64,000 bases of DNA, from the NCBI GenBank assembly GCA_002245135.1, contig NGBS01000018.1:1-64000 (forward strand), given 5' to 3'. This document shows, in pieces, positions 10,228 through 60,379 of this stretch. Every line of letters begins with the position of its first letter. Position 1 is the first letter of the stretch. A program made the translations under genes and the position numbers. The notes under the pieces were generated by a model. It searched no databases. It saw only the letters and a program-made list of their open reading frames with translations, and was not told where the DNA came from. This DNA is from Proteromonas lacertae (lineage: Eukaryota).

Positions 10228-10265
10228 TTACAATTTAGTTAATAAATCTCTTCAATTATATATGT

Positions 10266-10281
10266 GGTGCTAAAAATCACC
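10266..10281 (-). promoter_or_regulatory. Histone mRNA 3' stem-loop-like element
   Basis: Minus strand AAAACCA-GGTGAT-TTTT-AGCACC-ACA: 6 bp stem with one mismatch and a UUUU loop, 35 nt downstream of the H2B stop. Confidence 0.65.
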
Positions 10282-10316
10282 TGGTTTTAAACTTCTTTAA
10301 AAGTAAATTCATTTAT

Positions 10317-10729
10317 TTACTCTTTCTTTTCGGGAGCAGCTTTACCTGTAGCACTAGTAACTAAACTGTTGTATTTTGTTACAGATTTTGTACCTTCTGA
10401 TACAGCATGCTTCGCTAATTCACCTGGTAAAACTAATCTTACAGCACTTTGGATTTCACGACTACTTAAAGTGTGCTTCTTGTTGTATCGACATAATTGA
10501 CCTGCTTCACCACAGATTCTTTCGAATATATCACTTACAAAAGAATTCATTACAGACATTCCTTTCTTTGATATACCACATTCAGGATGAACTTGTTTCA
10601 ATACTTTGAAAATGTAAGAAGAATAGGTTTCTATTCTTCTGGCGTGTCTTTTTTACCATCTTTGTTTGTGGCGACTTTCTTTACATTCTTTACGGCTTTC
10701 TTTGATGCAGCTGCTGGTTCTTGACCCAT
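10317..10729 (-). CDS. H2B: Histone H2B with a C-terminal extension
   Basis: ATG 10729 [14 protein letters not shown]...; [41 protein letters not shown]...[32 protein letters not shown]. One-base frameshift in the T-run near 10649-10654. Confidence 0.97.
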
Positions 10730-25662: not shown

Positions 25663-28600
25663 ATGAGTGGTGGATTAATTCCTTTAAATAGTGGAAAAGT
25701 ATATATAATGTGTATTAATACATTTTTAGAAAAATTCTGGTGGAGATAGTTATACAGATGATTTTTTAGATGAATTATTGTCTGCTGGTATGTATAAAAG
25801 ATTATATAATTGCGTATAGAACCTCCTCCTGTAACAAAAGAAAAGTATTTTCGTTATTTATTTATATTCTAGGTCTAAAAATAAGTATTATGTATTTTAT
25901 GTTTTTTTAGAAAGTCAAAATCACACAAATTAGGAGGTATAACTATAATAATTCAAAATTTGTATAATAGATTCAATGGGAAGTACAAAACATCATCATA
26001 AATCAAAACATAAAAATAGTTCAGTATAATTATTAACAATGTTATGTATAATAATATTAGAAATTCGATTCATCTGAAGATTCATATCCTGCACCACCAG
26101 TAAATAAACCCAAGAAATTTTCAATGCCAGGAGATGGTTTTGATGATGATTTATTTGGATCATTAGGAGCTGATAAACTATTACCAAAGAATAAAAAATC
26201 AATGTCAAATCAACAAGAAGAACCAAATACATACGTATAATATATAATCATAAATAATAATTGAATTTAGGGAGATATAAATCAAAATAAATCACCATTA
26301 GCAGCTACTAATAAGCAATTTAATCCTAAATCTAACAATATAATAGACAGTAGTACAGATTTTGATGATATTTATAAACCAAATCCAAAATCTTCTCCAA
26401 TTCCACAGAATATTCCTGTAAAAAATGAACCTAAAGCAGATTCAAACAGATAATAATAATAGAAATAGAAATGGTGAAGATTATGATAATGATGATGAAA
26501 ATAATAACAATAATCAGGATGAAGATGAGGATTCAGTGAATTTTGACGATGATGATGTAGATATATCATTTTGAATGTGTTATAATAATATTATCTATTG
26601 AAAATATCTTTAATTCATTATTTTTTACATATTAGAAAGTCCAAAGAAGCCAGAAAAACAACCAGAAAAGCCAAAACCAAGTGAAACTAATTCTAGAAAT
26701 AAGAGTAGTACAAAAAATAGTAAGAATAAAGAGTTTGATGATGATGAATTACCACTTTCTAATGATAATAATGAGAATGATGATGATGATGATGATGATG
26801 ATTTACAAATACCAACTATAGTGACAAAACCTCGAATTCAAGCAAGACAAAGCAAAGATAATGATAATAATGATGATAGTAAGAAAAGTACTACAATTAA
26901 TAATTATATTGTCAATAGATATAGATAAGAAGAAAAAGAAAGAAAAGTCAGATAGCATTTATTCAAATGAATCAGATGTATAAACTTATACATAATAATA
27001 ATTATTAGGGTGATATAAGTAAATCAATAGATGATTTATTTACAGAAAATAGACCAAAAAGAGGTGCAAAACCAGCTGGAAGACCAAAAGCTACTGGTAG
27101 AATAGTATGATATATCATTCCATTATATATATTAATTTATAGAAAATACCATCAGTTTTTGCTAATAATCCTTCTGCTGCTGCTCTTCCTTCACCATTTA
27201 CCAATAATCCATCTGCTACTCCTCTTCCTTCACCATTTATGCAACCACCAGCCACCAGCTACCAGCTCCTTCAACTTCACCATTTGCCAATAATCCATCT
27301 GCTACTCCTCTTCCTTCACCTTTTGCACAACCACCAGTACCAGCTCCTTCAGCTTCACCATTTGCCAAATAACCCTTCAGCTGCTTCTCTTCCTTCACCA
27401 TTTATGCAACCACCAGCACCAGCTCCAGCTCCTTCAGCTTCACCATTTGCCAATAATCCATCTGCTACTCCTCTTCCTTCACCATTTATGCACAACCACC
27501 AGTACCAGCTCCTTCAGCTTCTCCAGCACCAGCTCCATCATTAATACCCAATCCAAATCCACTACCAGCAAAAGATGCATCACCAAAGAAAAGAGAAAGA
27601 GAATTATTACAACAAGCAGTAGCAAAACAGAAGGCATTGGAAGAAGAATTAGAAAAGATTAAAGAAGAAAATGCTAAACTGAAGGAAGATTATGAAAATG
27701 TAGAGAAAGAAAGAGATGAATTGAAATCAAAATATGATAAATTAGATGAAAGTAATTCAAATCTTAAAGATGATATGAAAAAAGCAGTTGAAGAAAAAGA
27801 GGACATTGAATTGAAATATGAAACTCTGAGAAAACAAACATCAACTGATATAGAATTACAACTAACAACGCAAAAGAATAAATATGAATCACAACTAGAA
27901 ACAATAAGAGTAGAATGTGAAATGGAAAATAAGAAATTATTAGCTGAAAAAGATGATAAAATCATTGAATTATCAAGTGAATTAAAACAACTGAAGTTAG
28001 ATTTTGACTATTTGAAGAAAACAACAGGAAATACAGAAGATAAATACAAATCAGAAATTGATGAAAAAGAAAAGAAATATAAGAATCAAATCAAAGAATT
28101 AAGTGAGTCTTTAGAAAAGAATAAAGAAGATTATGATGATTATAAGAAGAGAACAGATTTAGAATTATCATTAATGAAAGAAAAACATTCAAAAGAAGTT
28201 CAAAAATTAACAAAAATGAAAGATGATGAAATAGAATCTTTGAGACAAAGACTTCAAGATGTTCAATCAATCGATAAAGTGTTGGAGAAATTACATGATA
28301 ATAGTTCATCCATAAAATCATTATATGAAAGAGTAAATGCAGATAGAGATGAATATGTAAATAAGGTATATATATATATATATATATATATTGTTTATAT
28401 TTTTATATAGCAAGAATTTACTTTAAATGTAAGAGAGAATCTAATCAAAGATTTAGAAACATCATCAATGACTCAAAGAGACAGAATGTTGAAAGAAGCA
28501 AATAGATTACAAGTATATATATTTTATTCATTTATTTATTATTAGGAATTATTGTCATATATGGAACAACGAAATGAAACAATTCAAGTAAAAGAATATG

Positions 28601-32512: not shown

Positions 32513-32552
32513 TAGTGTTTATTTTTTATTTATTTTTATTTTAGGGGTTTTA

Positions 32553-32700
32553 GGGGACCAGCCATATTTCATCTACACAAAAGTAAGTAGTAGCACCAAA
32601 ATTAGGCCGTTCCATTTCCCACAGAAATTCATTTGTAACTTTGTACAATGCTCCTAGTCTCAATAGGGGCTTTAGTTTCCTTACTCATTAGTTTGAGGCT
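32553..32700 (-). ncRNA. RNU12: U12 small nuclear RNA (minor spliceosome)
   Basis: Minus strand begins AGCCTCAAACTAATGAGTAAGGAAA (cf. the conserved U12 5' end GCCTTAAACT(T/A)ATGAGTAAGGAAA). Branch-pairing GTAAGGA at 32684-32678, stem-loop GCCCCTA/TAGGAGC, Sm-like site AATTTCTG, 3' stem with apical TTACTTTT loop; ~148 nt. Confidence 0.9.
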
Positions 32701-33168
32701 AAAGAAAACAATAGATTACAATTTTAAATAACTTATTTTTTATATGAATTATTTTATGGGATATTGTGAGGCTAAATTTATATTTCTTTTCTAATTAATG
32801 TAGAGGTATGATTTTTTAAAGTATTTAAAACAATAATAAACAACACTTTTGAATAATAGTAAAAATAGTAAAAATAGTTGTATTATGATTCTGTAGAAAG
32901 ATGTGATAACTCATAAAAATGATTAATTAACAACATAATATTTTTCAATTATCATGCAATGCAGTTGTATTTACAAAATTTTACTTCTCATCTCTTTCTA
33001 CAACACATCAAAAATAGATTTAAAATTTATTATGATCAAGCCAAATGCTTGATGATCCTTTTTGATTGATTTGATTGGCTATTCTCACAATCATTTGAAT
33101 TAATCATAACTCGTTTATTTGGTATTTTCATCTTATTATTATAAATAATTTAGTTTATAGAAAGTGAT

Positions 33169-36146: not shown

Positions 36147-36240
36147 AAAGAAGATTTCACTATATGAAAAATATAAATAATTGAATTGGTTATTTGAGTT
36201 AAGGTTTAAAAATTAAATCAAGCCAAATAATAAAATCATT

Positions 36241-36454
36241 TTAAAAAACTACTGTAAATACAGGCTGGTTCCATTTGCCAATATAACGTCTAAACACGTT
36301 TATAGATTTAGTTGGAGTTGCTATTACACTACAAATATAACTGATATTATATACCTCATCGATATTTTCGCATTTAAAGGTAATTTACTAACTTCACACA
36401 CATCTCTTGTTGGTGGGAATTTATGGTGTTTTTCGAATTTTGTTAAGTCAGATA
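36241..36454 (-). pseudogene. Duplicated 3' fragment of the RidA gene with an internal deletion
   Basis: SDLTKFE-KH-HKFPPTRDVCEVSKLPLNAKISM matches the RidA 3' exons; 62 nt (39584-39645, including one intron) replaced by 6 nt. Confidence 0.85.
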
Positions 36455-36816
36455 TTGTTCTTAATACCTTTATTGAGATATAGTCATGAAAGAGGTATAA
36501 ATGGTATAATTCGATGGATATTGAAAGATAAAAATGAACAAACAAACAAACAAGAAAGAGATAATTATTATAATAAGTATTATTTCTTTCCTTTTTGTAG
36601 AATCATTTGATAAAAACAACATAATATTATACTTCTCATCTCTTTCTACAACACATCAAAAATTGATTTAAAATTTATTATGATCAAGCCAAATGCTTGA
36701 TGATCCTTTTTGATTGATTTGATTGGCTATTCTCACAATCATTTGAATTATTCATAACTCCTTTATTTGGTATTTTTATATCGTTATTATAAATAATTTA
36801 GTTTATAGAAAGTGAT

Positions 36817-39304
36817 ATGAGTGTTGTTGTAACTAAAGATAAAATGATGAGAAAACCAAGTGTTGCGTTTGGTGGTGATAATAATAAAAGAATGAAGTTA
36901 GAAGAAGATAGTTTTGTGAAGATAATGAACAGTTTAGTAGAAGACACTGATGTAGATTTTTTAAGATTTAAAGATGATAGTGTTAAAGTTTTTCAATTTC
37001 CTAAAAGAATGATTTTAACGAGAGATTGTTATAAAGTTATGTATGAAGATATTATCAAAATAATGAGATTCATCAGTTATCCAACAGTTGTTATAAGAGG
37101 ACAACCTGGTATAGGTAAAACAAGTTTTTTGTATTACCTATTACATTGTTTAAAGACAAGAGATGATTATAGATATCATGATAGAGATAAAACAATAGAA
37201 AGAAAAATAAAAGGTATATATATAGTAAAGGGAAAGAAGAATGGTAGTAAAACTGATAAAGTAGTATATGAACTTGACCAAAAAACCCAAAAAGTATCTA
37301 TTAAGAAAAATCCAGACTTGAATGATGTTACAGAATCAATAATAATAGTTGATACTTATAGTGGTGAATTTAATCCAAATAATATCGTAATTTCCATTAG
37401 TTCACCAGATGAAGATAATATTGAAAAATACAAAGATAGAAAATATAAAACTGAATTATATTTCGAAACATTAAGTTATGAAGAATTAGAAAAATGGTTT
37501 GATAAATGTATAGATATTGACAGAGATAAAAAATTTAAAGATATTTGTGAAGCTTATGGTAATATTCCAAGACAAATTTACTTTCATCATTTATATAAAA
37601 AGAATTATGGTAGAGATTATTGGAAATATTATGTGAAATTAATAGATAGTGTAGTTGGTACAATTGGTTATAATAATTTTGTTGGTAATTATATGAAAGA
37701 AAGTCAATTAACCAAAAATAATGGATTATCGAATATAATATTAAGATATGATTATAAAAAAGAAATGAATGTGGTATTAGGTCATGAAGTATTAGTACCA
37801 AAAGATCATTTAAAATTCATATCTGAAAAAGTTGAAAAATACATAGTGTGTAAATTCTATCCTCCTAAAAATGAATCTGAATATGATGAAATATGTGATT
37901 ATTATGAACAACTTAATAATGATATAAGAAGAAAAGAAAATGAGTTAAAAAGAATGAATAATGTTAAAGAAAAGGAATTTACCCAAAAAGAAATAGCAAA
38001 AGATAAAGTAATGAAGAGAATTGCAATGAAGCAAATGATATCATATGAATTGAGTATGGAAATAATAAAATTGAATGTAAAAGAAGATAAGAAATTTATG
38101 TTAAACTATGAAAAGCCAATCTCATTTAGTCATCCTGATGGTGGAAAACATTATGTTTGTATTATATTGGATGAAAATAATTATTTTGATTTAATAATGA
38201 ATGGAATATTTATAAAGATATTCTTAGATGATGATGAATTATCAATTGATGAAAGAAGAATAACAGAATCAATCAAAGTATAAATAATCTATATTTATAT
38301 AATATAATATAATAGGAATATAATAAATGTAAAGAATGTCAAATTAAGTGTTGTTTTTTAAATGAAAAGAGAACACAGATCTTTCCAAATAATGTAAAAC
38401 CAAAACCAAAAGGTAAAACTAATGAAAATAGTAATGTTAAAAAAACAAAAAGTAATGATGAAGATGATGTATTTACTGATATAAATGATAAAAGTCTTTA
38501 TTTAATGAGAAAATGTTTTTATTCAATTTTGAATCTTATTTGTCCTGAAGATATAGATATATCTTATCCACACCAAAAGAACTATTTAATATTTGGACAA
38601 ACTGGAATAGGAAAATCAATATTAGCGAATGTTATAAAAGAATATATTCATGAAAAAAGGAATGGAGTAGTTAAAATAAAACATATAGTTGAAAATGGAG
38701 TTAGAAGAGGTCATAATGAAGATAAAATAGACAGAGATTATATAATAATTAGTGATGGAGGTGTAATTGGTGAAGATGATTATGGTGATGCAAAAATGAT
38801 AATATTATTAGCTGATCCATCTGATGAAAAGTTTAAGACATTTGAGAGTAAGAGATGTCCTCTGGTGATGTATATACCTCCATTTACAAAAGAAGAAGTA
38901 GAAGACGTAATAATTCTAGAAAATCCTAAATATAATATACCTACAAAACATTTTTTAAATAGATCTGAATTAAGAGAAGGTTTAACAGCATTATCTGGAG
39001 ATATAAAGGGTTATGAAAAAGAAAAGATTTATATAGAAAGAATTATGAATATTATGGAGGTGTAATTGGAAATATAGAATGTGATGAAGAAACAATAAAA
39101 AGTAAGCTTAATGAAATGAAGAAAGAAAATAAATTAGAAAATATAATTAATGGAATTAATGTATGTTCTCTTTCAAAAGGTAAATATAACAAAGTATTAA
39201 TATATGAAACATGTGAAGAAGATGTTACTGAATCTAATCATTTGATATTTATATCTGAAACAATTCAACAAATGGCAAAGAAAATCTTATTCAAAAATAA
39301 TTGA
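36817..39304 (+). CDS. Second copy of the double P-loop NTPase gene, lacking the SPRY-like header; one-base frameshift near 39016-39020
   Basis: Near-identical to copy 1 from MRKPS onward; intron 38278-38315; A5 here vs A6 in copy 1 (35857-35862). Confidence 0.7.
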
Positions 39305-39398
39305 AAAGAAGATTTCACTATATGAAAAATATAAATAATTGAATTGGTTATTTGAGTTAAGGTTTAAAAATTAAATCAAGCCAAATAATAAAATCATT

Positions 39399-40062
39399 TT
39401 AAAAAACTACTGTAAATACAGGCTGGTTCCATTTGCCAATATAACGTCTAAACACGTTTATAGATTTAGTTGGAGTTGCTATTACACTACAAATATAACT
39501 GATATTATATACCTCATCGATATTTTCGCATTTAAAGGTAATTTACTAACTTCACACACATCTCTTGTTGGTGGGAATTTATGAAAGTCTATATATTATA
39601 TGATTATTGCCAATTTATACATTTCTTATATATCTCATTAACTTCTTCGAATTTTGTTAAGTCTGATAGATATAGATTTGCTTTAATAACATCATCTACA
39701 CTACTATTTGCACTTTTTAATATTCCGCACACATTCTCTAGCATCTGCTTTGTCTGATCGGTGAGATTTTCACTAACTAATTCACCTTTTGTATCTACAC
39801 CTAAAATTGCTGATGTAAATATAAATGAACAATTTGGGGGAGTCTATGAAATTAAATGTTATTATATAATTACTATAACAGCTTGATTTCTAAAATAAAA
39901 AACCTAATAACTTATATACTTAGGCAAACCAACTTTATAATCAGGAGCACTATCACTTGATATAACTTCTATCTCTACTCTTCTTTTGAAAACACTTATT
40001 TGGTTAGAATTTATGAGTGAGCTTTTAAATATGATTGATCTTCTACATAATCTTCCAATCAT
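39399..40062 (-). CDS. ridA: RidA/YjgF/YER057c/UK114 family protein with a putative mitochondrial-type presequence
   Basis: Hand translation across four introns: MIGRLCRRSIIFKSS..SDSAP..NQAVI..IFTSAILG..QTKQMLENVCGILKSANSSVDDVIKANLYLSDLTKFEEVNEIYKKYFHKFPPTRDVCEVSKLPLNAKISMSVIA. Confidence 0.9.
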
Positions 40063-40189: not shown

Positions 40190-42129
40190 TTAATTACTTC
40201 TTAAACTATTTGAGCAAATTACATATATTAAATTCTCTAAACAAGATTTGACATGTTTGGATTTTACATTATTCATCATTTGAAGTAACATTCTTAGCTG
40301 CTCACCTTTAATATACTTATGAATATATTTACTATCCAATTCAAAGAAGAAATGTATTACATTGTTAAGCAATGAAGTTGAGACTTGTTTAATATCAGAA
40401 TATGGTTTTATCCATTTACTATTGAATAAAATAAATAAACAATTAAATATACATTAATATATCAGTTAAACCACATTCTAAATATTCTTCTACAAATGGT
40501 TTATTTTCTTCCAAATAATAATGAATAAGGGGAAACATCTTTTCTTTATTAACACATTCTTTCTCACACTTAAACAAACTATAATCTAATGTGTTCAAAT
40601 AATCCATATAAAGAATAAAATCTTTTGCATATATTGGTTGTTTTGTACAAGATATTTCATGTTTAATTTCATCCTTTGAATAATCGAATATTGATGAATA
40701 GTTTGATTTTTTTCTCCTTTTGTTTTTTGGTTTTACATTTTCATCATCATCTTCTTCTCCCTTATTCTTTGCAAAATCAAAACAATGTTTCCAAAAGTCT
40801 TTCTCTAAAGTTTCAGTAATGTATTTGTATTTATCAATATCTTCTGGAGATAAATATGAAATATCAACTGATTCTCTATGGATTATTATAAAATTATATA
40901 ACTGAAAATACTCTTTCAATTTTCTTTTTGACCTTTCTGACATTTCATGTGATTGAATTCTATTTCTTATAGAGTTTCTTGAACAAGTTGGACAATACCA
41001 ATTCCCCTATATATATTATATATATTATAATATACAGTTGGTATGTACTGCAATCCTAAACAATAAGTATGATATCCATTATTACAATTATCACATAATA
41101 ACAAACAATACTCATTATCTCCTTTTCTACAAACTTCACATATCATTTCTTCACTATAAAAATAACAATAATAAATGAAAAAGTCTTGTTTAGATACATT
41201 TTTGGAACAACAGTCCTAGTTTTCAAATTTTCAATCCTAAATAAAGAATATAATTTAAGAAATAATAGAAATACGATATAATATGATGATTTGATTTGTA
41301 TAAAGAGTAAGTTGCTTGTTTACACAATGGACATGTATTACTAATTTTACACCATTGTTTTATACATTGAAAATGAAATATATGTGGACATAATTGAAAC
41401 ATCCCTATTTCATTATCATCTATATTTAAAGGACTTAAACATATTGAACATTCTTTATTATCCACATTTTGAGAGTAATGTAATGAATGATCAAATTTAT
41501 CATCATATTTTACAATCCACAACAATCTATGAGGTAAATAAAGAAGTGATTCTAATATTAAATTATCTGGTAATCTTATTTTTTCATCACATTTGTATCT
41601 CGTTAAATGAAACTCTTTCTTCTTTGTGTCAATTTCCAACAGAAAAACTACACATTTTAGAGTATCACAGAAACATTGAATAATCATTTTATCACCTTCA
41701 CATATACCATCTTTTACCGATTTATAATAATCAGGAGTCAGCTTCATATTTGGCATTATCTTACCATAATAAGCTGAATTTAATTTCAAAGTATCTGTTA
41801 TTAGATTTCTTAGATATATTTGTGGTACAAATTGCTTAAACTCTATTTGATCATAAATTTGATCTGCTAAAACATGTAAACACATCAGATTTTTTAAAAC
41901 TGTTCAATTTCAGTAAGTGATCTTTTAAAACATCTTTTATCTTCTTTTCTTTGCATGAGTAACACATATTCTCTATTTTTTCAAACCAGTTTACTTGAAA
42001 TCTAAATATAAAAACAAAAGAATTGTACAAAGATAGCATAGAGTGTAGTATATGCTTATCTTCTATTCCATCAGATGGAATCGCTATTTTATCTATCTGC
42101 TTCTCTTTTAAACCAAAACTTCTATTCAT
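40190..42129 (-). CDS. OTU-like + RING-H2 + PHD finger protein
   Basis: KSD.CLHVLADQIY...HY (OTU-like, frameshift near 41884); CSICLSPL..CPHIFHFQCIKQWCKISNTCPLCK; CEVCRKGDNEYCLLLCDNCNNGYHTYCL..GNWYCPTC at ~40985-41145. Confidence 0.75.
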
Positions 42130-42170
42130 TTATATTTTTTCAAAATAGATTTGAATTGTTGTTAATTTAA

Positions 42171-42916
42171 ATGCAAGACTCACCGTTAAACCAATTGTTA
42201 CAAGCAATAGAATTATCTTTGAGACGTGTTGAAGAAAATGTAAATAAAATTAATACTATTCATACCTCAGTTAAACAAAGTATTTGATTATTGATTATAT
42301 AAATCATATAAAGACAATAATGTAATATACAACTCTTCTACTAGGCTACATGAACTGTATACAATGCAAATGGCTTTTGATTCAGCAGTATGTGAATTTG
42401 TGGATTTAGCCCTTGCAAAACTTGATAATATTACTTGTATGATATTGATGATAAAGATTTTATAATTATACATAGCTGTTGAAAGTCCTGTTAGAAATAG
42501 ATCTTTAGAACACGTTGAAATTGGTACAGCTATAATATTTCCTACACAAGAATGTTGGGTTGAAGGAACTGTGATAGATTATTTTCAAGAGGATGATATT
42601 TACATTGTTGAAGATTCAGATAAATACCAATTTAAAGCTAGACGAAGACAAATCATTGTAAAACCAAAAATAAGAAGGCAATTACCAGTTCAATCATTTG
42701 TATTGGCTCATTTTCCAGATACAACTGCATTTTATGAAGGAACAATAGTAACTGCAAGTGGTGTATATATTAGTTTTTGATATATTATAGAGAGATGAGA
42801 TTGATATTAATAGCCAACCTGTTCAATTTAAAGAAGATATGGATGAATATGGTAACTTAATTAATTATCGTGCAATTGATATGTTGATGATAGTTCCTAA
42901 TCCAGGACCTTGCTAG
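42171..42916 (+). CDS. SGF29-like tandem Tudor protein
   Basis: WVEGTVIDY..YIVEDSD..VLAHFPDTTAFYEGTIV..VQFKED; 5' region has apparent micro-exons. Confidence 0.7.
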
Positions 42917-43028
42917 TGCAGTTGAAGAATTCAACGGAATGCAATCTTTGTAATGTAATTTGTTTTTTTAATAATATTTTGATTTCAAATAACAAATTAA
43001 TACAAATAAATTATAGTAATAAATGAAT

Positions 43029-43379
43029 TTAAGATTTCCATAACAGTATATAGATGCTAGGCACAACTGAGAAATATACATAACTAATTATCATAATAAA
43101 CAGGTTTAAAATATACCATTTTGTTCTATGTGTTACAAATGATCCAAAACTTCTACCTATTACACAATTCCAACATCTACCATATTCAGCATCAAAAGTT
43201 GTTCTAATTTTTGTTGCCTACAGCTGGTAATCTATAATTAATATAATTAATATTTTATACGTTTTTATTCCTTGGTGGTTTTCAGCAAAAGCTTCTTGTG
43301 CTATAGTGATTGCTCTGTTTACTTGTTCTTCTTCCATATCTTCTGCATATACTTGTGACTTATATGATAGTGTCGCCAT
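43029..43379 (-). CDS. Dynein light chain, LC8 family
   Basis: Hand translation: AEDMEEEQVNRAITIAQEAF..ATKIRTTFDAEY..WNCVIGRSFGSFVTH..YVYFS..ILLWKS*; two introns and small frameshifts. Confidence 0.85.
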
Positions 43380-43632
43380 TATCTAAATAATATAGATGAA
43401 TATATTCTATACAACTCTAAAACAAAGAAAATAAAATTCAAAACGGTTTAAATCAAGCCAAACTTTTTCAAAACTCTAAAGTATTAAAATAAGACAATAT
43501 GACAAAGGAACATTGGTCTATCAGCCTTTATGCGGCTCTTACATTCTTTTATGATGGAATCATAAAAGAATATACATAACATTACAAATACAAACATGTT
43601 AAACATAAAATATTTATTTATTTATTATCTAA

Positions 43633-45890
43633 TTAGCCTAACGAAGGAGGTTGATAGACTTCTTGGACTATTATAAATAAATTTATGAATTTATACGTTC
43701 TGTTTCTGTTGTATTACCAGAATACCATCCAAAGTTCAATTGCTTGTATTGATTATGGATAGCTTCACTAAATATTGCTTCATATACATCATTATGTTTT
43801 GCTACTTTAGATATCTTCCATTCTTCTATTGTAGTATAAAAATATATTACTATACTCAAATTGAAGCTATTAGCTTTAGCAGTTTCTTTGATTTTAATCC
43901 ACCACCCTTCTTCACCTCCAGATTCTTCTTTCTTCATTACCTGTTTCTCATACATCACTGAAAATGATTCTAATAGGAAAGCTAATACAACATTCATTAC
44001 TAAATAAACTGATAATAAATTCCAAACAATAAAATATATTCTAGAATAACTATTTGTTCCAGCTACAACTCCTTCCATTACTATTGGCCAATTATTGACA
44101 ATCTGTTGCTCCCATAACGTAACCATTGAATTTGGTAAATTATCAAAGTTATTATGATAATAATTCAATACTCCATAACTACAATTTGCTATTTTATCAT
44201 TGTTTCTAGGTAATTTTCCTGCAAATAATTCCATTCCAATAATTGAATATGAATAATAAACACATAATAATAATACAATATATCTACCTAATGCTGGTAC
44301 AATAATTTTGAGAGAATTAATCATAGCATCAAACCTTCTCACAAGCCTTAATAATCTCAATAAACGAAGCATTCTGAGTATTAATAACACTTGTGTAATT
44401 TCTTGACTATTGTTTAAACCAACATAACTTAAGACTGTACCAAATAAAGAACCAACTACAGCGACAAAATCAATCTGTTTTATATAATAATAATTATTAT
44501 AAATACATCATTAAAAATAGACATTGTAAAATAAGTTACTAAACCAAATCCAATCATTTTAAGTATTAATTCAATTGAAAATAAAACTACCATTATTGTT
44601 TGAATATATGTAAATTTTGATAATCCACTAGTTGATGTTTCTGCTTGAATCATCTATTAATATAAATAAATACATAAATATGTTAATAATACTTCAATGA
44701 TAATAATAATAGAATTAGCTAATACTAATAAATCAAAGAAATAAATAACAAATTTGTTATGAGAAAATAAATTCTCCAAATGAGCTTGAATTTTTTGAAA
44801 CTTAGTGCTACCATCAGAACTACCATAGAAGATTGAAACATTTGACTTTATCTTTTTAGCTTTCAACTAATACAAATACATAAATACATAATACAATAAT
44901 ACATTTGTATAAGTGTATATAATTTTACAGAAATCATTTCTATTTACTTCTCCATATCGATGTACATCAACTGTATCAAAACATAAACCAACTATTTCAC
45001 TTGGAATGTTCTTTTGAAAACATATCATAAACTCTATTTTGAATAATTATTATTATAAATTATACTGATAAAATCTTGTCTTGTTACTACTTTACCATCT
45101 TCTCCTTTTATTCCATATTCTTTCAGTCTTGCTGATTGCGTTTTCAATGAATTGAATGCCATATTTAAACCATCTACTAATTTACCATAATGAGTTCTAT
45201 ATAAATAATAAATAATATAATATTCATATGTTTTATATACAATAATTTACTCTTTGTTCTTGCTTCATAATTTGAATAAATCAAAGCCAACACTAAATTG
45301 AATAGACAATACATTCCTATTGATTGATAAACAACGAAGAATAATGAAAACCATCTGTTACATCTATATACAGGCATCATAATATCAGGATAATTAGCAT
45401 TACAAACACAATAATTAAAGAAAACATTAATACAAAATACAATATATATATATATATATATGATATGTTGTTAATAGAATATAAAGCTGAACCATTGAAT
45501 TAACTAACGAGTTAAAATAATCCGTACAATCACCAGGTTTATAGGTTGAACAATAAGCAGCAGTGCGAGTTGGATCTCTCTATTAAAAAATTATAAAAAG
45601 AAAAAAAACATTACAAATATACATCACAGTGATTATTATCCATTCCACTGAAGAAAACAAAGCCAAATATTGAGAATACAAGTAAAGTAACAAAAATTAA
45701 TAGCAATATATTTACAATTTCAGGTATAACAGTTAGAATACCTGAGAATATTCTTCTTATATTTCTTTTTCGTTTAATCAGTAGAAATGGTCTGAAATAT
45801 TCTGAAAACTTGAGGGATTTTTGGGATAAATATGAGTAAAACCCAATTAGCAGTCATACATATTAATAATACAACTATTACCACACTCCA

Positions 45891-45925
<35 letters not shown>

Positions 45926-46386
45926 AAAATAATATGTATAAATTCAATAGATTAATCATACTTTGCTTTTAAAAATGGTTTTGTTAAACATAAAATATCC
46001 ATATATGTATCAAACCAGAAAAATGCTAGAATAAGACCTTGTATTAAGCATTGGATCCAAGGCGTTAGAGGAACTGTTATATTTGATCCATTAATAGAGG
46101 AAGGCCTTTCATAGAATGAAAAAAACATATAAAATACACACATCATCATGTGTAATACATTCCATTGTTTACTGTGATATAAGATATAGAAGAATCTAAA
46201 TAATAAATGTAAAATATACCTTTTATTACTTGACATATTGCGTAGGATAGTACGACCAGCTAGAGCATCTTGTGCATATCTAGCTGCATCTTCGTATTTG
46301 TTAGAAGTAGCTCCGAATCTATATATTAATATGAATACCTAATTAGATTACTGGACGTATTGGAAACCTGAGTTTAACAACGACAT
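43633..46386 (-). CDS. TPC: Two-pore calcium channel
   Basis: Two 6-TM repeats; pore 1 LYILLTTANYPDIMMPVY; pore 2 NNFDNLPNSMVTLWEQQIVNNWPIVMEG; S4 LRMLRLLRLLRL; EF-hand-like linker. Confidence 0.9.
45400..45466 (-). other. U12-type AT-AA intron (67 nt) in TPC pore loop 1
   Basis: AC|ATATCATAT...TTTTCTTTAAT...TTTGTAA|T GCT AAT TAT CCT restores LLTTANYPD. There is no AG in the interval and read-through hits a stop. Confidence 0.85.
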
Positions 46387-46530
46387 ATATAAATAATTTG
46401 ATGATTAATTCAACTTTTAAAAAATCAGATACCAAGCCTTAGTCGAGCTGAGATCTTTGTTCTATATCACTTTTCTCATTAAGAAGTGAATTAAAAAATA
46501 AAAGGCTTTGTATAAAGGAAAAACAGATAT

Positions 46531-49400
46531 ATGGGTAATCAAGCTAGTGTAAATTATGTAAGAATTCTTTTTTTAACTATATCTTATAGTTTAGTTCAGA
46601 TCTCGGTTATGTACCTTATTCAAATCCAAATGAACAATCTTCAAGAGAACAAACTGTTGATGATAGACCAAAGATCAACCCTTCAGTAGAATATAACTTC
46701 AGGTATTGTTTTTATCATAATAAATAGTCATGATGAAGTCGGAGAAGAATTATCAGAGTTATGGACTAACTTTGAATGTTCAGATGAAAATGTATCACTA
46801 TTATCTCATTCTTTTATAGCCTGATGATCTTTTGAAGTTTTTAAACCGTTTTATTGAAGTATATGAAGATTGGGAGCCTAAAAATTCAGCAGATCCAATG
46901 GTAGAACAACCCAAAAGCAATCCAAGTGATCCAACTTCAATACCAACATCAGAATCAATTCAACATGAACATTTAAGTCACAAAATTCCACATACCTCAT
47001 TAGAAGCAGCAGGACATCCAATGAGATTAGTTAAAGGAGTTGTAGCAGCAATTGTTCATGCGACACAATCAAATTCAGAAAGTGAAGCAGTTTTAGTTTA
47101 TCTTCATTTTATGCAGATTATTTCAAGATCAAAACATAATAGAATATTATTAAATTTAGCTGGATTTGTAACACCCTTTTTATCCTATTTAAAATATCAA
47201 TCAGCAAGAATTCAAGAGTTATTAGAAGATCCAGTATTGAAAGATAACAAATGGCATGAGTATATATTGATTTTAATATTTAAATAGAAGTTTAAATGAT
47301 GTATTAAAGAAATTTCAATTATGTTTATCCATCACACGTAGTTTCAATGGTGTAACAGTCGACTGGTTAGATATCCCACTCATTGCAGAAACATCAGATG
47401 ATACAACTACAATTAAAGAATTCTTAGTTACAACCTTGAAAATATCCAATGAGAAGTCAGAAGCAGGTTGTCCAGAATTGGCTATTAATTGTGTGAATGA
47501 ATTATTATCATGTTCATATATCGTATATATATATATTATTATTTATTTATTTATTTATTAGTTTCATCGTTTCTTAAGTAGATTATATACAGAAGATAGT
47601 GGAAAATGTAGTCAAATCTCACCCGAGTATCAAGAACTGTATTATACACTATTACCAATGGAATCAAAGTGCGTTTTAGGTGCAGGTGAGATGATAACTG
47701 CTATACCTGATAAGACTCAAGATATATTGAGAGAAACTGGAAGATTAGATTATATATTGAGATTAATATCACCACCACATATGTGTCATTTTGGAGATAG
47801 TGGAGTTTGTACTTGCGAATCTGAAACTTTGAAGTTTTATACAGCATTTCAGTTTGTTTGTATTATATTGTTGAAACAAGCCATTAGTTTCAATACTTTA
47901 TCTGTTCAATATTTGGATAATGATAATAGAACTAGATCGATAAGAGACTTTATGATTTGGCTTGCTGCTGAAAGTTTGGTGAAAGATCAAGCAAAGCTTG
48001 GTCCAAGTATTGGTGAAAGTTGGTCAGTTTCAAATGTATATTGATTATTATATTCATTTATGTATTGTTTGTATAGTTATTAGTCAATACTGAAGTTAAA
48101 TTAAGAATACCAAACAAATATATCTTTCATGAAAAAGGAATATGTAAAACTGACGAAGTTTACAATGACATGGTCAAATTAAAAGAATTTGAGCCATTTA
48201 ATAAATTTGGTTATGTTGAATTTGATTGGCTATCAGATGATTTCAATCACAGTCTATTAATGATGGGATTATCTATCATTATTACCTGTTCAATATCCAA
48301 AGATAAAGATGGTAAAGAATCAATCAATAAGCCAGTTCTTATTGAATTAATTAGTTTACTATCACCTCAATCAAGTGATTCATCTGTTACTCAAACCTTA
48401 TTCAATCTTATTTCAGAATATCCATTCTTGCATTTGATCTTATTAGAATGTCATAAGTTTATATGTTCAACAATGCCTGTAGTGAAATATACATATAAAC
48501 AGGAGAATATTATCAATAGATTATTTACAGATGAGTTTTATTATTATAATAAATGTAGTGATCTGGATAAATTCTATCAATTTACAACTTCTGAAGAGAA
48601 TGATTATATTGTATATGATTTAGAACATAAGAATGAAATTAATATGAAAGATTTAATCATCATATATTCAAGTATATATATTTATATATTAAAATAGTTC
48701 GTAAAATCTCAATGGATTTATTCACAATCCTATGTGATACAGATCAAACCAATTCCTCTGGCAATATTCAATTAGATGAATTAAAATCACTATTTATAGT
48801 AATAGACCAACATAAAACTGATATTCCTTCCATGTTTCAAATATTCTGTGTTTTAAGATATATGTTATTACAAAATACTACTATGATTGCTAAAATTATT
48901 GAACAATGTAATGGATTTGATACTTTATCACTATACATGTCAAATGAGTATTGATTATTATATGTTTTAATGTTTGTATAGTTATTCTGATAAAGTTGAA
49001 TATTGGCCTGTATTATATATCTTAAGTCAGATTGTTGATCTATTAATTGGAAGTGGTAATGAATATTTAGTGAAAATTTTCGCAAACCCAAAACAATCTC
49101 AAGAAAAATTCATTGATTCTTTATATAGATTGTTGTTAATACCAAAAACACAAGATTTAGCATTTAAAGTGATTAGTTTATTAATGAATTTCCTTATTAA
49201 GAGTATATTCAAATATTATTATTATATTTATATATAGATGTTAAATTACCACTTGGTAGAGTAGATGTAACTACATTATTACAACAGAATTCATTATATA
49301 TTTATAAACAATATGTTCAAACAATTTCACAAATCAGTGATTTATGTAAAGATGAGAATTTAATCCATGTTTCAAGAATCAAACTATTATCAGCAGTATA

Positions 49401-49437
<37 letters not shown>

Positions 49438-52400
49438 TGAATAGATTGAAACTATTATTCATGAACCATTAGCTCCTCGTAATATCAAACAACAGATCTT
49501 CTCATCACTCAATATATTTATCCATCTCAGTAATATGATTACAGCTTATGCCGATTCTGGTAGTGAAAAACATAAAGAATTAGTATCAGCAACATTAGAA
49601 GCAATCTATGTATTATTAGAAGGAAATGATATAACAAAAATACAGTTTAAAGATGAAATAGGTTATTCACAATTATATGATATATTATTAGTAATCGAAC
49701 CAGAAATTACTTCAACAATAATTATGAATAAAATATTACAATTGATGTTAGAAACTACTGATGATAAATATACAAATTTAGTGATTAAATCACCAGCTGT
49801 ATTAATGGTTTATATTAAATTATTACCTCACTGTTCTGCTGAAAATCAATTATATTATTTGAATATATTGCACTTATTATTATCATCCGAAAAAAGCACA
49901 TTGAACTTATCATTAACTGGATCAAACCTCGAACCTCCACTGTTAGATTTATTATTAGATATATTAAACCAAATAGATGAAAGTGTAATGGAATTATTTA
50001 TTTTAGTAATTACAATAGTAGGAAGTCATGGATTAACTATTAGACAATTAAAAAGAATATTTTCTTTAATGAAAAACACTGGAAATGAAAGACCATATTG
50101 TGCTATGAAGTTCTTAACTGTATTGCAGAATATACTGAGAAATAATGTTAAAGGTGTGGTATATGGTTCAAGTAGATACTTTTTATTTGATGGAATAAAT
50201 AGTGGAATGATAATGAATAGTAATTATTTAGTAAATAACACTTTAACAATGAGAAAAGAATTGCCAGTATTTCCATATACTGGATATACTCTAAGTATAT
50301 GGTATAATTGTGTTTCTTTACAATGTCCTTGGTTACAAGATAGTTCAAACCGATGTTTGACTGGTTGTACTTATATTCCCTATTTATTCACAATTAGAGA
50401 TAAAGCTGGTAATGGTATAGAATGTTATATTAAAGATAGTGAAATAATGGTTGATATGTATGAAAGAAAGATGTGTGTATCAAATCAACCAACAGGAATT
50501 CGTGTAAATTGTAATGTATGGGAACAAATTGTGATAACACATAGTAATGGTGGTTTTATGAAACAACCAGGTATTAGTATTTATATCAACGGAACTATAA
50601 AATACAAAAGTCCAATGGCGTTGTGTAGTATTAACAGAACCATTTGTCGCCTTTGCTACAGGTGGTCCATTTGAAAGAGGTGTTTTACAAACAGATCATA
50701 CATCATTCAATGGAAAATTAGGACCAATCTATTTATTGAATAAAGTGATAAATGATGAACAAGTTAGTAGTTGGTATCATCTAGGTCCTGATTATATGTT
50801 TACCTTTCAATCATCTCAATTAGATCATCGACAGTTAAACTGTATTCCTCCTGCTTGTTTATTTGATGGATCTTTAACTAATTCTATTGTATTTACATTT
50901 AATGCATTTAATTATAAAGATGATTTATTGTTGAATAATGCACCAAATGAGAATTTCAATCAAATGTTTGGAAGTGGTAGAAACTATAAATTGTTAGAAG
51001 GAATCTATTGTCAATTACTAACTGGTAGTAGATGTTGTTATACTCGTACTGTATTAGATATATTAGATTCATTGAATGGAATTACTGTGTTTTTACCAAT
51101 ATTTGCTGAAGCTGATTTAAAGAATGGAAAAACTAAAGATTATACTCCTGAGTTGAACTTTATACCTACTTTAATTAATATATTCTATTATTGCTTATAT
51201 AATAATAAGAGTAACACTGATTCTTTAATTAGTAATAATGGTGTACAAGTGATTTCTTATTTATTAAATTCAATTTCTCCAGTTCATAAATCAACAGAAT
51301 TAATTACAACTTTTTATGATATTATTTCTAGTGATAATATCTCCACTGAGATTAGAGATCAAATATATTATTATATTATATTAAATATAAAGTTATGGAT
51401 ATTTAGTCCATTTTCAGTACATCAAAGAATATTTGATATTTTAACTGAATTATCTGAAAGTAATATTGAGAAGTTTGTAGAGATATGTAATATACCATAT
51501 TTACTTGATATTATGCAAAGATATTATTATTATGAATTAGATGTTCCAAATGAAGAACATTTAACTATATATCATGTATAATAATTATTAATATATATAT
51601 ATATTATTATTATAAATAGAAGAAAGAAAAGACTTTAGCTGATTATGAACAAGAACAAACTCAACAACAAGATAATAGTAATACTCATAAGAATGAAGAA
51701 AATGAAGTAGATAAAGAGGTTATTGATATTAAAGACTATATTACAATTGAGAATGAATATATTGATCCAAATACAAAGGAAGTAGTTGGTAGAAGAATTA
51801 CTGTATTAATTCTTATATATATATATTATGTTTATAGAAAGATGAAACAAAGATTATTAGAGGAGAAATCTGGAAATTAATGAAAATAATAGCTAATCAC
51901 GGTGAAGGATTAAAAGAAGATGATATTGTTATATTATATGCCAATTTAATAAGAAAATATGTTGAACATTCACATGATATTGATCACATAATTGAAATAA
52001 TTGATTTTATCATTTCCATATTAGAAACAGTATATTCTATTTAGATATTTGTAATATTATAGAACGAGCCAAATCAAATCAAGTCATGGTGTATATTTAC
52101 AACACAAGAATTTACATTAGATATCCAACAAAAGAATGGAGATATTGATACAGTAACAATGAAATTCTCAGGAACTCAAGCTTTACTCAAGCTTTTAGAA
52201 AGTGATAATCCAATTATCAGAGAGAAGATATTACATATTATATTAATGATCATAAACTGTGCAAGAATAAATGCACATGAAAGTGCTCCAAGAGGTAATA
52301 AAACTGGTTCAATGTGTGATTTTATTGGTATTCCATTCTCTTTATTCTCATCTTATTTACATGATATGACTGAAGTATTAATGAGAAATCCAATTACTAA

Positions 52401-55400: not shown

Positions 55401-56945
55401 AATTAGATTCATTATATGAAAAGGATAAAGCTACGTTTGAAAGGGCTTGTAGTATGATTGACAATTTTGGTCAAACACCTTCACAATTGTTTACATTGCC
55501 ACATCCACATCGTGAGAGTAATACAACAAGAATTTATAACATCTTGCCAATGATATCTCAGAATAATTACTATTGTAACAGATGTTGTAAATGTATTGGA
55601 TTATATAATTTGAAGATTGAAAGAATACCAATGATAATGTATAAAGGTCAAGTTTCACAAGATGCAATACTGTTTATAGGTCATAATGAACAGAATAATA
55701 AAATAATAACAATAGATCCAAATAGATCAATTGGTTTACATTCATGGAAATTGAATCTAAAGACAAATACTATGGAGTTTTTACAAGATGTTTCAATGGT
55801 TCAACCTGCTACATCTACTAAGGTGGGTTATCCATATGCTATTAATATTCATATTAATGACATGTCTTTATTAACACAGCAATTATATGCTATTTCAAGT
55901 GATATATCTTTTTTTAATTCGTTTATATATATGTAAATTATAGTTTCTTTAATTTATATGTAAGGTTCAAAGTTATTCACCTGTGGCCATTGGGATTTAT
56001 CATTCAAAATCACTTCTACAGTGAATGGTTCATTATTATACAGTTATGCCACACATAAAGACATTGTTACTTGTATTGCTGTATCTGAAGATGATCAAAC
56101 TATTGTTACTGGTTCAATTGATAATAATGTTCATATATACTTAAATGCACCTGGTTTTGGATTAGTTTTAAGAAAAATATTGTATATTATATTTTATTAT
56201 TTATTATTTATAGAACTGGTCATGATGACGTAGTAAGATGTGTAGCTGTTAATACAATGTTAGATTGTTTAGTAAGTGGTAGTGCTGATGGTACTGCTAT
56301 TATATTCACAGTAATGAAAGGTGCTTATGTTTGTACAATTAACTTGGCAGAATCAAGCCTAGATGATTTGAGAGAGAATCAGAAGATTAAACCATCGTGG
56401 ATAGCAATCTCTCCAATTGGTTATATTATCATTTATAGTGAAGATGATTTTACATTGAGATTATTTAGGTATGATTATATTTTTAAGTTGTAAATAGTTT
56501 GAATGGAAAATTGATAAATAGAATTGAAATAAAAGAAAGACTTTATTGTTTAAGATTAAGTGAAGATGGTGAGTTTTTAATATCAGGCGGAGATAGTAAG
56601 AGAATTGTAGTTAGAGAAATAAGAACACTTAAAGAAATAACAAGTGAATATAATAATTGTAATGGTTTAAATAAATCTAGAATGATATTATTCAATCAAG
56701 TATTATATATATATATATATATTGATTATTATATTATATAGTTACCACCATTTGAATCAATAATACGTTATATCGGTTATACAAAACATGAATCACAATT
56801 AGTTATTGGTTTACAAAATGGACAGATTCTCATTATTGGTTCTTCTATTAGACAAATTCAATCAGCTCCTATTATGTCTGCAAGTCTACCAATCCCACCT
56901 AATGATGCTGTTGATGAAAGTCAAGAAAATCCTCAATTACCATAA
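46531..56945 (+). CDS. BEACH-domain protein (neurobeachin/LvsA-like): ConA-like, PH-BEACH, BEACH, WD40
   Basis: W.RREISNFEYLMELNRLAGRTYNDLAQYPVMPWIL, HYS, DVKELTPEWF, VVLPKWA, LESEYVSEHLPDWIDLIFGYKQRG, NFGQTPSQLF; many introns; starts MGNQAS. Confidence 0.95.
55904..55963 (+). other. U12-type AT-AA intron (60 nt) in the BEACH WD40 region
   Basis: GAT|ATATCTTTT...TTTCTTTAAT(55944-55953)...TGTAA|GGT TCA AAG restores SDGSKLFTCGHWD, the conserved DG..LF..GHWD spacing. Confidence 0.75.
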
Positions 56946-59332: not shown

Positions 59333-60365
59333 ATGAAAGAAAACTCATTTATAACCCAAGAAAATGCTATGTTATTCACTGATAGATCTTTGTTGAAAGC
59401 ATCATCCAGGTATTTGGATTTTTATTATTGTAGAGTAACTATAATCACATTAATATATAACTACATATTATTAATGGTTGGATTTAGATTATTTTCAAAG
59501 ATTCCAGATTTTGTATATTGTTCATACAACAATAATAAAATGGGAGACTTAGTTTGCACAAAAGTATCACTAAATTCATTATATATATAGAATTCATATG
59601 TACAAAGATATTTACTTGAATTAATTGTTTTGTTTTGTTTATTTGCACTTCTATCAAGTATATATTTTCAATTAATTTATACCTAATAGGCTTAATCGCT
59701 TATAATGGAGACAGGTTGTATGTACCATCTTCAAATATATGGACAGCTAGTAAACTAATAAAATTGACGCTATTAAGATTATTACATTATATTCAAATCA
59801 TTTATCAAATCGTTTTATATTATCTTGTTACATCATTCAAGAATCAAATAAAACACTCAATCCTTATATCATTTTTTGTGTATATAAATGTATGAATTAT
59901 GACTTCCTTAACATATTATTTACTGTCAGGAAGAAATTAACAAAAGAACAGAATGTGAAATAGAATTCACCAACAATTACAATTTCTATATCATTTTATT
60001 TTTGATTGTTATTCTAACAATTCTCTTTCTAATGTCATTTATTATAAAAGATAAGTATATTTATTATGTGCTTATATTATTATAGTTCTGAGATTATTGA
60101 TTCTTTATCACCTGTTCATATAAATAAAAATCATTTATCAACAACTTACATTGATCAACATCATCTGTTTTTTACTATCTTTTATTTTGACCCAAATGTA
60201 TAATATTATATATAATGATAATATTGTATTGTGTATTAGGATATACGATTATTTTTAGAAACTAGAACAGCTTTCCATTATGCTATTAATTTGAAGAATA
60301 AGTATCTTAGACATGTATTGAGAGGAGTAATACTCTGTCATGTTTTTATGTTATTTATTCTCTAA
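59333..60365 (+). CDS. Hypothetical multi-TM membrane protein containing a U12-type intron
   Basis: Hydrophobic exons separated by short GT-AG introns and one AT-AC intron; the frame stays open from 59924 through two GT-AG introns to TAA 60363-60365. Confidence 0.6.
59866..59923 (+). other. U12-type AT-AC intron (58 nt)
   Basis: CTT|ATATCATTT...TTCCTTAAC(59904-59912, exact U12 branch consensus)...TTTAC|TGT CAG GAA. Confidence 0.88.
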
Positions 60366-60379
60366 TTAATATAATTTAT

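What the first reader, a model, noticed from the sequence alone, without database searches (positions are those of the whole stretch)
45400..45466. AT-AA intron interrupting the two-pore channel filter motif LLTTANYPD
Seen: the conserved TPC motif LLTT-ANYPD is split by 67 nt containing an in-frame stop and no AG dinucleotide. The natural frame-restoring excision is AC|ATATCAT...TTTCTTTAAT...TGTAA|T. Known: AT-AA is a rare U12 terminus class, and voltage-gated channel superfamily genes are classic minor-intron hosts. This is the clearest proof-of-principle junction in the window.
Basis: partly seen in the sequence, partly recalled or inferred. Interest (0 to 1): 0.7.

Follow-up and report, generated by a model that had tools for sequence, protein, structure and literature searches.

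The report
Minor AT-AA intron with altered donor
A 67-base stretch that begins AT and ends AA splits the pore motif of a calcium-channel-type gene and is likely an intron removed by the rare minor spliceosome; such ends are already known, but this and three sibling predicted introns lack a donor-site letter that is normally almost fixed.

Summary
Observation confirmed. 45466-45400 (minus strand) is 67 nt with no AG and an in-frame stop. Removing it as ATATCAT...TGTAA gives LLTTANYPD, gap-free against homologues; every frame-keeping GT/GC-AG alternative destroys the filter. It is most likely a U12-type intron: its branch site TTTCTTTAAT can pair at 9 of 9 positions with a U12 snRNA gene found in this same window (32552-32701), and the branch A lies 15 nt from the AA. 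Three sibling AT-initiated introns (AT-AA, AT-AC, AT-AC; 58-66 nt) share the anatomy; 98 curated GT-AG introns do not. No RNA evidence was obtained, and the assembly has indel errors, so a lost C or G is not excluded. AT-AA itself is known (human, plants, Physarum; 4 of 146 Blastocystis ST1 rows read). The position is not shared with the channel relatives that could be checked, so the channel-heritage remark adds nothing. The unexpected part is the donor: 0 of 4 have the +6 C (ATATCA x3, ATATCT), against 336 of 339 in ST1. This suggests a relaxed or shifted minor 5' splice site in this low-GC, Blastocystis-like protist.

The parts
45400..45466 (-). 67-nt AT-AA intron, phase 2 inside the second Thr codon (AC|T) of the domain-I filter motif LLTTANYPD; contains an (AT)n tract
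45459..45466 (-). 5' splice site ATATCATA (minor-type ATATC; +6 is A instead of the canonical C)
   Evidence: sequence; comparison
45414..45423 (-). predicted branch site TTTCTTTAAT; predicted branch A at 45415, 15 nt from the 3' end; 9 of 9 possible pairs with U12 (7 Watson-Crick, 2 G-U)
45400..45401 (-). 3' terminal AA; first frame-keeping A-N dinucleotide after the branch A (next in-frame AA is 6 nt on and would delete Ala-Asn; first in-frame AG is 51 nt from the branch A)
45467..45579 (-). upstream exon ending ...MVQLYILLT-AC
45241..45399 (-). downstream exon beginning T-ANYPDIMMPVY
43683..46386 (-). two-pore channel gene model, about 749 aa, 10 GT-AG introns plus the AT-AA intron; one 1-nt frame break near 45808-45823 read as X; 30% identical to P0003 over residues 12-732
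32552..32701 (-). U12 snRNA gene with canonical branch-site-binding GUAAGGA
   Evidence: Rfam RF00007, 56.9 bits vs gathering 53, E 1.9e-08
55904..55963 (+). sibling 60-nt AT-AA intron in the neurobeachin-like gene (ATATCTTT ... TTTCTTTAAT ... ATGTAA; SSD|GSKLFTCGHWD)
   Evidence: (spacing matches 45 of 49 homologues with the motif)
26563..26628 (+). sibling 66-nt AT-AC intron with in-frame stops in a low-complexity coiled-coil gene (ATATCATT ... TATCTTTAAT ... TTTTAC); no homology check
59866..59923 (+). sibling 58-nt AT-AC intron in an unknown membrane-protein gene (ATATCATT ... TTCCTTAAC ... ATTTAC); a 40-nt GT-AG alternative also keeps the frame
59988..60050 (+). possible fifth member, 63-nt AT-AG (ATATCATT; weak branch site, 7 of 9 pairs); 3n without a stop, may instead be a coding hydrophobic segment; not counted

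Best explanation
The 67-nt stretch interrupts the channel's filter codons and is likely a U12-type (minor) spliceosomal intron with genuine AT-AA ends, predicted to be excised as AC|ATATCAT...TGTAA|T so that the mRNA reads LLTTANYPD. Shown: the insert must be removed at this place and length to give the conserved filter; it starts ATATC; a U12 gene with the canonical GUAAGGA lies in the window and can pair with TTTCTTTAAT. Inferred: U11 and then U6atac read the donor ATATCAT; U12 pairs with the branch site and bulges A45415; the 3' end is then chosen mainly by distance from the branch A, so the AA 15 nt away is used because no AC or AG is in reach. It belongs to a small class in this genome (4 of about 110 parsed introns in the window) with donor ATATC[A/T]T, length 58-67 nt and branch A 11-15 nt from the end. 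The +6 C is missing in all four, which implies relaxed or compensated donor pairing in this lineage (inferred; U11 and U6atac are not in the window).
For: Homology requires this exact excision. All 6 frame-keeping GT/GC-AG alternatives within 60 nt delete ANYPD. U12 snRNA gene present with intact pairing segment; 9 of 9 pairs. Branch core C[C/T]TTAA[C/T] at 9-20 nt from the end in 4 of 4 AT introns and 0 of 98 curated GT-AG introns. +5 C in 4 of 4 vs 7 of 98 (p 8e-5); length of 58 or more in 4 of 4 vs 1 of 98 (p 1e-6). A parser blind to branch sites and homology recovered the same four introns with the same ends. AT-AA minor introns are documented: human RASGRP4 and others (PMC1557818 Tables 2-3), Physarum, Blastocystis ST1. 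Relatives at about 94% identity keep the domain-II exon intact (P0174 cluster, 13 members), so the gene looks alive.
Against: No transcript spans the junction in anything I could reach. The assembly has indel errors: 27 frame breaks called in 55.8 kb of parsed genes, some spurious, including one in histone H2B and one in this gene. The donor is not the canonical ATATCC, and U11, U6atac, U4atac and minor proteins could not be looked for. A first self-trained parser with a length penalty put the 3' end at an earlier AA (45415, 52 nt). By free-energy duplex with U12 the site is not unique: 2 of 98 GT-AG introns score as well or better, and 2 of 98 pair fully over the 7-nt core. Major donors here are GTAT[A/T], close to ATAT, which keeps a U2 route conceivable.
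Confidence: 0.85

Rival explanations
1. It is an ordinary AT-AC or AT-AG minor intron, and the assembly dropped or miscalled the last base.
For: Frame breaks occur at up to about 1 per 2 kb of genes (27 in 55.8 kb); an A-run differs by one base between tandem paralogues; H2B lacks a base in an A-run. AC plus AG make up 136 of 143 ST1 ATATCC rows read. The neurobeachin AT-AA is followed by GG, so loss of one G of a GGG run would mimic it.
Against: The breaks inspected lie in or beside homopolymer runs, whereas here a lone C or G would have to be lost. Rough odds by hand: AA prior about 0.03 vs at most about 5e-4 per base for an indel, i.e. tens to one for a real AA. A second AT-AA with the same TGTAA end and branch site exists.
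Confidence: 0.06
2. The intron is real but is removed by the major (U2) spliceosome, like the U2-type AT-AC introns of sodium-channel genes.
For: U2-type AT-AC introns exist and cluster in voltage-gated sodium channel genes (PMC1557818). Major donors here are GTAT (91 of 98), one letter from ATAT. The +6 C is missing.
Against: +5 C, branch core and length separate the four AT introns sharply from the 98 GT-AG introns. A U12 gene is retained.
Confidence: 0.04
3. The insert is not removed accurately (broken allele or pseudogene), or is spliced to another acceptor such as the AA 6 nt downstream, giving a filter-less channel.
For: The gene model has a further 1-nt frame break near 45820. An in-frame AA lies 21 nt from the branch A.
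Against: The rest of the reading frame is intact over about 749 aa with 10 normal introns. Similar 1-nt breaks hit essential genes such as H2B, which points to assembly noise. Close relatives conserve the domain-II exon.
Confidence: 0.04

Closest known systems
U12-type introns of Blastocystis ST1 (Gentekaki et al. 2017, PMC5608401; section 8 and S11 Data rows read)
   Same: AT-initiated minor introns longer than the roughly 30-nt major introns; mixed 3' ends (143 of 336 ATATCC rows read: AC 83, AG 53, AT 4, AA 3; the 3 ATATCT rows end AC, AA, AG); CTTAAC-type branch sites near the 3' end.
   Different: ST1 donors are ATATCC in 336 of 339 and never ATATCA; here 0 of 4 have +6 C. ST1 minor introns read are mostly 37-50 nt with the branch site closer to the end; here 58-67 nt and 11-15 nt.
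Non-canonical AT-AA minor introns of animals and plants (Sheth 2006 PMC1557818; Larue and Roy 2023 PMC10639083)
   Same: AT-AA termini with a U12-type branch site; AT-AA is the commonest non-canonical terminus.
   Different: There non-canonical termini are about 4% of conserved minor introns and the consensus donor is RTATCCTT; here 2 of 4 end in AA and the donor is ATATC[A/T]T.
Transformed minor introns of Physarum polycephalum (bioRxiv 2020.10.12.336362, passages read)
   Same: A lineage whose minor splice signals have drifted (donor RTATCYTT; AT-AA is 27% of non-canonical U12 introns).
   Different: Physarum changed the branch site (TTTGA) with a compensatory U12 and has over 20,000 minor introns; here U12 is canonical, the change is at donor +6 (mostly A), and minor introns are a few percent.
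Two-pore channels (TPC1/2/3)
   Same: Two Ion_trans domains; filter I TTANYPD and filter II VNNW; TPC structures are matched at E 4e-28 to 8e-24.
   Different: No related locus checked has an intron at this position; two animal-like loci have a GT-AG intron 6 nt downstream.

Membership tests
U12-type spliceosomal intron | Sequence must be removed to restore a conserved reading frame | tested here: met
U12-type spliceosomal intron | 5' splice site RTATCCTT | tested here: inconclusive
   ATATCATA: +1 to +5 and +7 match, +6 and +8 do not; +5 C separates it from 91 of 98 major donors
U12-type spliceosomal intron | Branch site complementary to U12 (TTCCTTRAC type) close to the 3' end | tested here: met
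   TTTCTTTAAT, 9 of 9 pairs incl. 2 G-U, 15 nt from the end; core motif in 0 of 98 GT-AG introns
U12-type spliceosomal intron | Terminal dinucleotides AT-AC/GT-AG or a documented one-letter variant | tested here: met
   AT-AA is a documented variant; rests on one assembly
U12-type spliceosomal intron | Host encodes the minor spliceosome: U12 snRNA | tested here: met
   RF00007 at 32552-32701 above gathering score
U12-type spliceosomal intron | Host encodes U11, U4atac, U6atac and minor-specific proteins | not testable with these tools
   not in the window; no whole genome is held
U12-type spliceosomal intron | Spliced in vivo at these ends, dependent on the minor spliceosome | not testable with these tools
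   no reads could be laid; needs RNA-seq or RT-PCR and knock-down
Ancient minor intron of the voltage-gated channel superfamily | Same position and phase in distant orthologues | tested here: not met
   49 of 80 related loci are contiguous over TT|AN; L048 and L036 have a GT-AG intron 6 nt downstream and L077 shows its acceptor side; the other 28 did not show the site. Weak test: many loci are intron-poor or may be transcripts
U2-type AT-AC (type II) intron | U2-type donor apart from +1 and no U12 branch site | tested here: not met
   +5 C and U12-type branch core present
Two-pore channel (host gene) | Two tandem 6-TM Ion_trans domains with TTANxPD and VNNW filters | tested here: met
Blastocystis (host lineage) | Phylogenetic placement in the genus | not tested
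   resemblance only: two He_PIG genes (Blastocystis has an expanded IPR008009 family; that He_PIG is IPR008009 is recalled), median 32-nt TAG-ending introns, about 24-32% GC; no named close homologue returned

The most novel reading that the evidence does not exclude
This low-GC, Blastocystis-like protist runs a minor spliceosome whose donor consensus has shifted from ATATCCTT to ATATC[A/T]TT, losing the +6 C that pairs with U11 and U6atac, with matching changes in those snRNAs, and whose 3' end is set by distance alone so that AA serves as well as AC. It would be a second natural case, after Physarum, of minor-intron signals co-evolving with snRNAs, this time at the donor and probably driven by AT pressure.
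Probability: 0.3. Interest if true: 0.65.

Novelty: new variant of a known kind. Interest (0 to 1): 0.4.

Why it matters
The AT-AA intron alone is one more example of a known class. Its practical point is that gene finders and U12 classifiers keyed on RTATCC and AC/AG would miss it and truncate the channel at its filter. The donor pattern matters more. The C at +6 is part of the standard minor donor consensus, and holds in 336 of 339 ST1 introns, yet it is absent from all four here. If that holds genome-wide, the U11 and U6atac genes of this organism give a direct natural test of how much donor pairing the minor spliceosome needs and whether snRNAs follow base-composition drift.

Tried and rejected
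Whole genome: none held. RNA runs: no RNA holder listed for 41000-50900; this is no evidence either way, and no reads were laid. Homologue search with the downstream exon found no candidate. The representative search found a 94%-identical exon-level protein but no spliced product over the junction. Loose motif scan: near chance by itself (33 vs 13-30) and missed the 26563 intron. Self-trained parser over-called introns (196 GT-AG) and misplaced the 3' end of this intron; replaced by a fixed-model parser, which was trained on my curated introns and allowed AT introns only with an ATATC start. Of 104 hand-listed GT-AG introns, 6 were dropped for coordinate slips, leaving 98. First gene-model script had a wrong start and gave nonsense, corrected. 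TA-AT sliding (45465-45399) rejected: same protein, but no known intron class and it loses the ATATC donor. GT/GC-AG alternatives rejected. Excess of AT-AA ends over ST1 is not established: 2 of 4 vs 4 of 146 gives p 0.008, but 1 of 3 without the intron that prompted the study gives p 0.10. Paper search for two-pore channel with U12, minor intron and TPCN1 found 0 papers; search for ATATCA with minor intron found 4 unrelated papers. Earlier scan findings: none. The protein atlas gave no result.

Full report
1. Observation. The minus strand carries a two-pore channel gene from 46386 to 43683. Pfam Ion_trans matches three of its exon frames and solved TPC1/2/3 chains match its largest exon at E 4e-28 to 8e-24. 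Between 45466 and 45400 lie 67 nt that start ATATCAT, end TGTAA, hold no AG and run into a stop. tblastn with homologue P0003 stops at residue 314 on one side and resumes at 315 on the other, and the spliced model aligns LLTTANYPDIMMPVY without a gap. Of the 61-73 nt excisions listed, only AT-AA and a one-base slide (TA-AT) give the exact motif. All 6 frame-keeping GT/GC-AG alternatives within 60 nt delete ANYPD.

2. The intron background. I hand-listed 104 GT-AG introns and kept 98 after dropping 6 with coordinate slips. They have a median of 32 nt (24-70), begin GTAT in 91 of 98, have C at +5 in 7 of 98, and end TAG in 96 of 98. The finding differs in length, in +5 C and in carrying TTTCTTTAAT near its 3' end.

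3. A class, not a single case. A scan of 139 sense-strand RTATC[A/C/T] sites for low GC and a branch-like motif returned 6; four have the motif 40-46 nt in and sit at frame breaks or stops, and the other two have it about 90 nt away inside coding sequence. The four are this intron, a 60-nt AT-AA in a neurobeachin-like gene (55904-55963), a 66-nt AT-AC (26563-26628) and a 58-nt AT-AC (59866-59923). For neurobeachin, the spliced spacing D...GHWD matches 45 of 49 homologues that show the motif; its GT-AG alternative removes the DG. The other two have no homology check, and 59866 has a plausible 40-nt GT-AG alternative. A parser that knew neither branch sites nor homology called 106 GT-AG introns, the same four AT introns with the same ends, one further AT-AG candidate (59988-60050, in frame, not counted) and 27 frame breaks. 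An earlier self-trained version over-called introns and chose an earlier AA for this intron. The branch core lies 11-15 nt from the end in 4 of 4 AT introns and in 0 of 98 GT-AG introns. A loose motif scan alone is near chance.

4. The machinery. Rfam finds a U12 snRNA gene in the window at 32552-32701 (56.9 bits, gathering 53) with the canonical GUAAGGA. In the standard register the finding's site pairs at 9 of 9 positions, two of them G-U, with A45415 bulged. The same test gives full 7-nt core pairing in 2 of 98 GT-AG introns, and by duplex energy 2 of 98 do as well or better, so pairing is supportive, not unique. U11, U4atac and U6atac are not in the window.

5. Mechanism. Shown: place, length, motifs, U12 gene. 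Inferred from established minor-spliceosome biology (recalled, with the consensus as quoted): U11 then U6atac read the donor, U12 presents the branch A, and the acceptor is picked at a short distance from it. After the branch A the A-N dinucleotides are AT at 4 nt, AA at 15, AT at 16 and AA at 21; the first in-frame AG is at 51. The AA at 15 nt is the first that keeps the frame and the only one that keeps the filter.

6. Could AA be an error? The assembly has indels: a base is missing in an A-run of histone H2B, an A-run differs between tandem paralogues, and this gene has a 1-nt break near 45820. Loss of a C or G after the AA would mimic AT-AA. By hand, a prior of about 0.03 for AA (ST1 rows) against at most about 5e-4 per base gives tens to one for a real AA here, since no run of C or G is involved. 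The neurobeachin case is weaker because GG follows.

7. Is the position ancient? Of 80 related channel loci from metagenome contigs, 49 are contiguous across TT|AN. L048 and L036 have a GT-AG intron in the Asn codon, 6 nt downstream, and L077 shows the acceptor side of it. The other 28 did not show the site. None has this intron. The test is weak because many loci are intron-poor or may be transcripts, but it gives no support for inheritance from channel-family minor introns.

8. Comparison with print. Larue and Roy (PMC10639083; passages and section 30 read): AT-AA is the commonest non-canonical minor terminus; non-canonical termini are about 4% of conserved minor introns; Blastocystis ST1 has 253 minor introns by their count. 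Sheth et al. (PMC1557818; passages and Tables 2-3): 8 AT-AA among 66 non-canonical U12 introns; U2-type AT-AC introns cluster in sodium-channel genes. Physarum preprint (passages; supplements not seen): AT-AA is 27% of non-canonical U12 introns; branch site and U12 co-evolved. Gentekaki et al. (PMC5608401; passages, section 8 and rows of S11 Data): 346 U12 introns in ST1. In the intron table as held (cut when stored), 336 rows begin ATATCC, 3 ATATCT and 0 ATATCA. I read 143 of the 336 (AC 83, AG 53, AT 4, AA 3, counted by eye) and all 3 ATATCT rows (AC, AA, AG); every row seen is ST1. So AT-AA is already known in Blastocystis. PMC12129017 (term searches of the main text; supplements not read) describes low-GC Blastocystis with longer introns and canonical stops, and has no occurrence of 'U12' or 'minor splic'. 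PMC11347168 and PMC3129679 were read as passages. Nine paper searches were answered; none showed an ATATCA minor donor class, but subscription papers and unread supplements may hold one.

9. What is new. The donors here are ATATCATA, ATATCTTT, ATATCATT and ATATCATT. None has C at +6, against 336 of 339 in ST1 (Fisher p 6e-8; 3e-6 without this intron). ATATCC is 55 of 359 ATATCN words in the window, so 0 of 4 is what a free position would give: the data show loss of the requirement for C, not necessarily selection for A. The sample is four introns, two without homology support. An excess of AA ends is not established (p 0.10 without this intron). The organism resembles Blastocystis (He_PIG genes, 32-nt introns, AT-only minor introns) but was not placed on a tree.

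10. Verdict. A real, most likely U12-type AT-AA intron (0.85). The terminus is a known kind; the donor without +6 C, shared by its siblings, makes it a modest new variant that snRNA sequences and RNA-seq could test at once. Interest 0.4.

Noticed in passing
window 32552-32701 (-): U12 snRNA gene between two protein genes, Sm-like site AAUUUCUG; an ATATCCCATAAAA element lies about 60 nt upstream and may be a snRNA promoter element (untested).
   Followed up: partly
window 10317-10690 (-): Histone H2B with a 1-nt frame break in an A-run (assembly indel likely) and a weak histone 3' stem-loop match at 10241-10286 (20.5 bits, below gathering 34).
   Followed up: partly
window 1-1500, 24568, 24721, 27256-27488, 29425, 39028, 45808-45823, 50620, 53805: Many 1-2 nt frame breaks without a spliceable gap in dynein, BSD, coiled-coil, P-loop, channel and neurobeachin genes; read as assembly noise.
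   Followed up: partly
window 33154-39560 (+): Tandem near-identical pair of large genes with two P-loop motifs each (31 substitutions in 2.7 kb aligned); only weak Pfam matches.
   Followed up: no
window 4237-6897 (+) and 8667-10227 (-): Two He_PIG (putative Ig) surface-protein genes, a family expanded in Blastocystis.
   Followed up: partly
window 60370-61530: An intronless frame at 60767-61003 (-) lies between two inverted, partly palindromic repeats (TAGGTAACCTATAGGTTATAGGTAAAACCTATA-like, about 60390-60440 and 61470-61530); it looks like a small DNA-transposon remnant. Seen by eye only.
   Followed up: no
window 46549-46589 (+): GT-AG intron (GTAAAT donor) with TTTTTTTAAC 13 nt from its end, pairing 9 of 9 with U12: chance or a converted minor intron.
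   Followed up: no
L048 3829-3904, L036 about 3844-3910: GT-AG intron inside the Asn codon of LLTTAN in animal-like TPC1 loci, 6 nt from the position of the finding.
   Followed up: partly
P0174 cluster (13 members): Close relatives of the channel's domain-II exon run into the last intron at the same place and differ in (AT)n length there (IHYIYIL, IHYIYIYIL, IHYIYIYIYIL).
   Followed up: partly
whole window: TGTTTGTT, the Blastocystis polyadenylation motif, occurs 18 times on both strands, about three times a by-hand expectation from base composition; gene models nevertheless end in normal stop codons.
   Followed up: no
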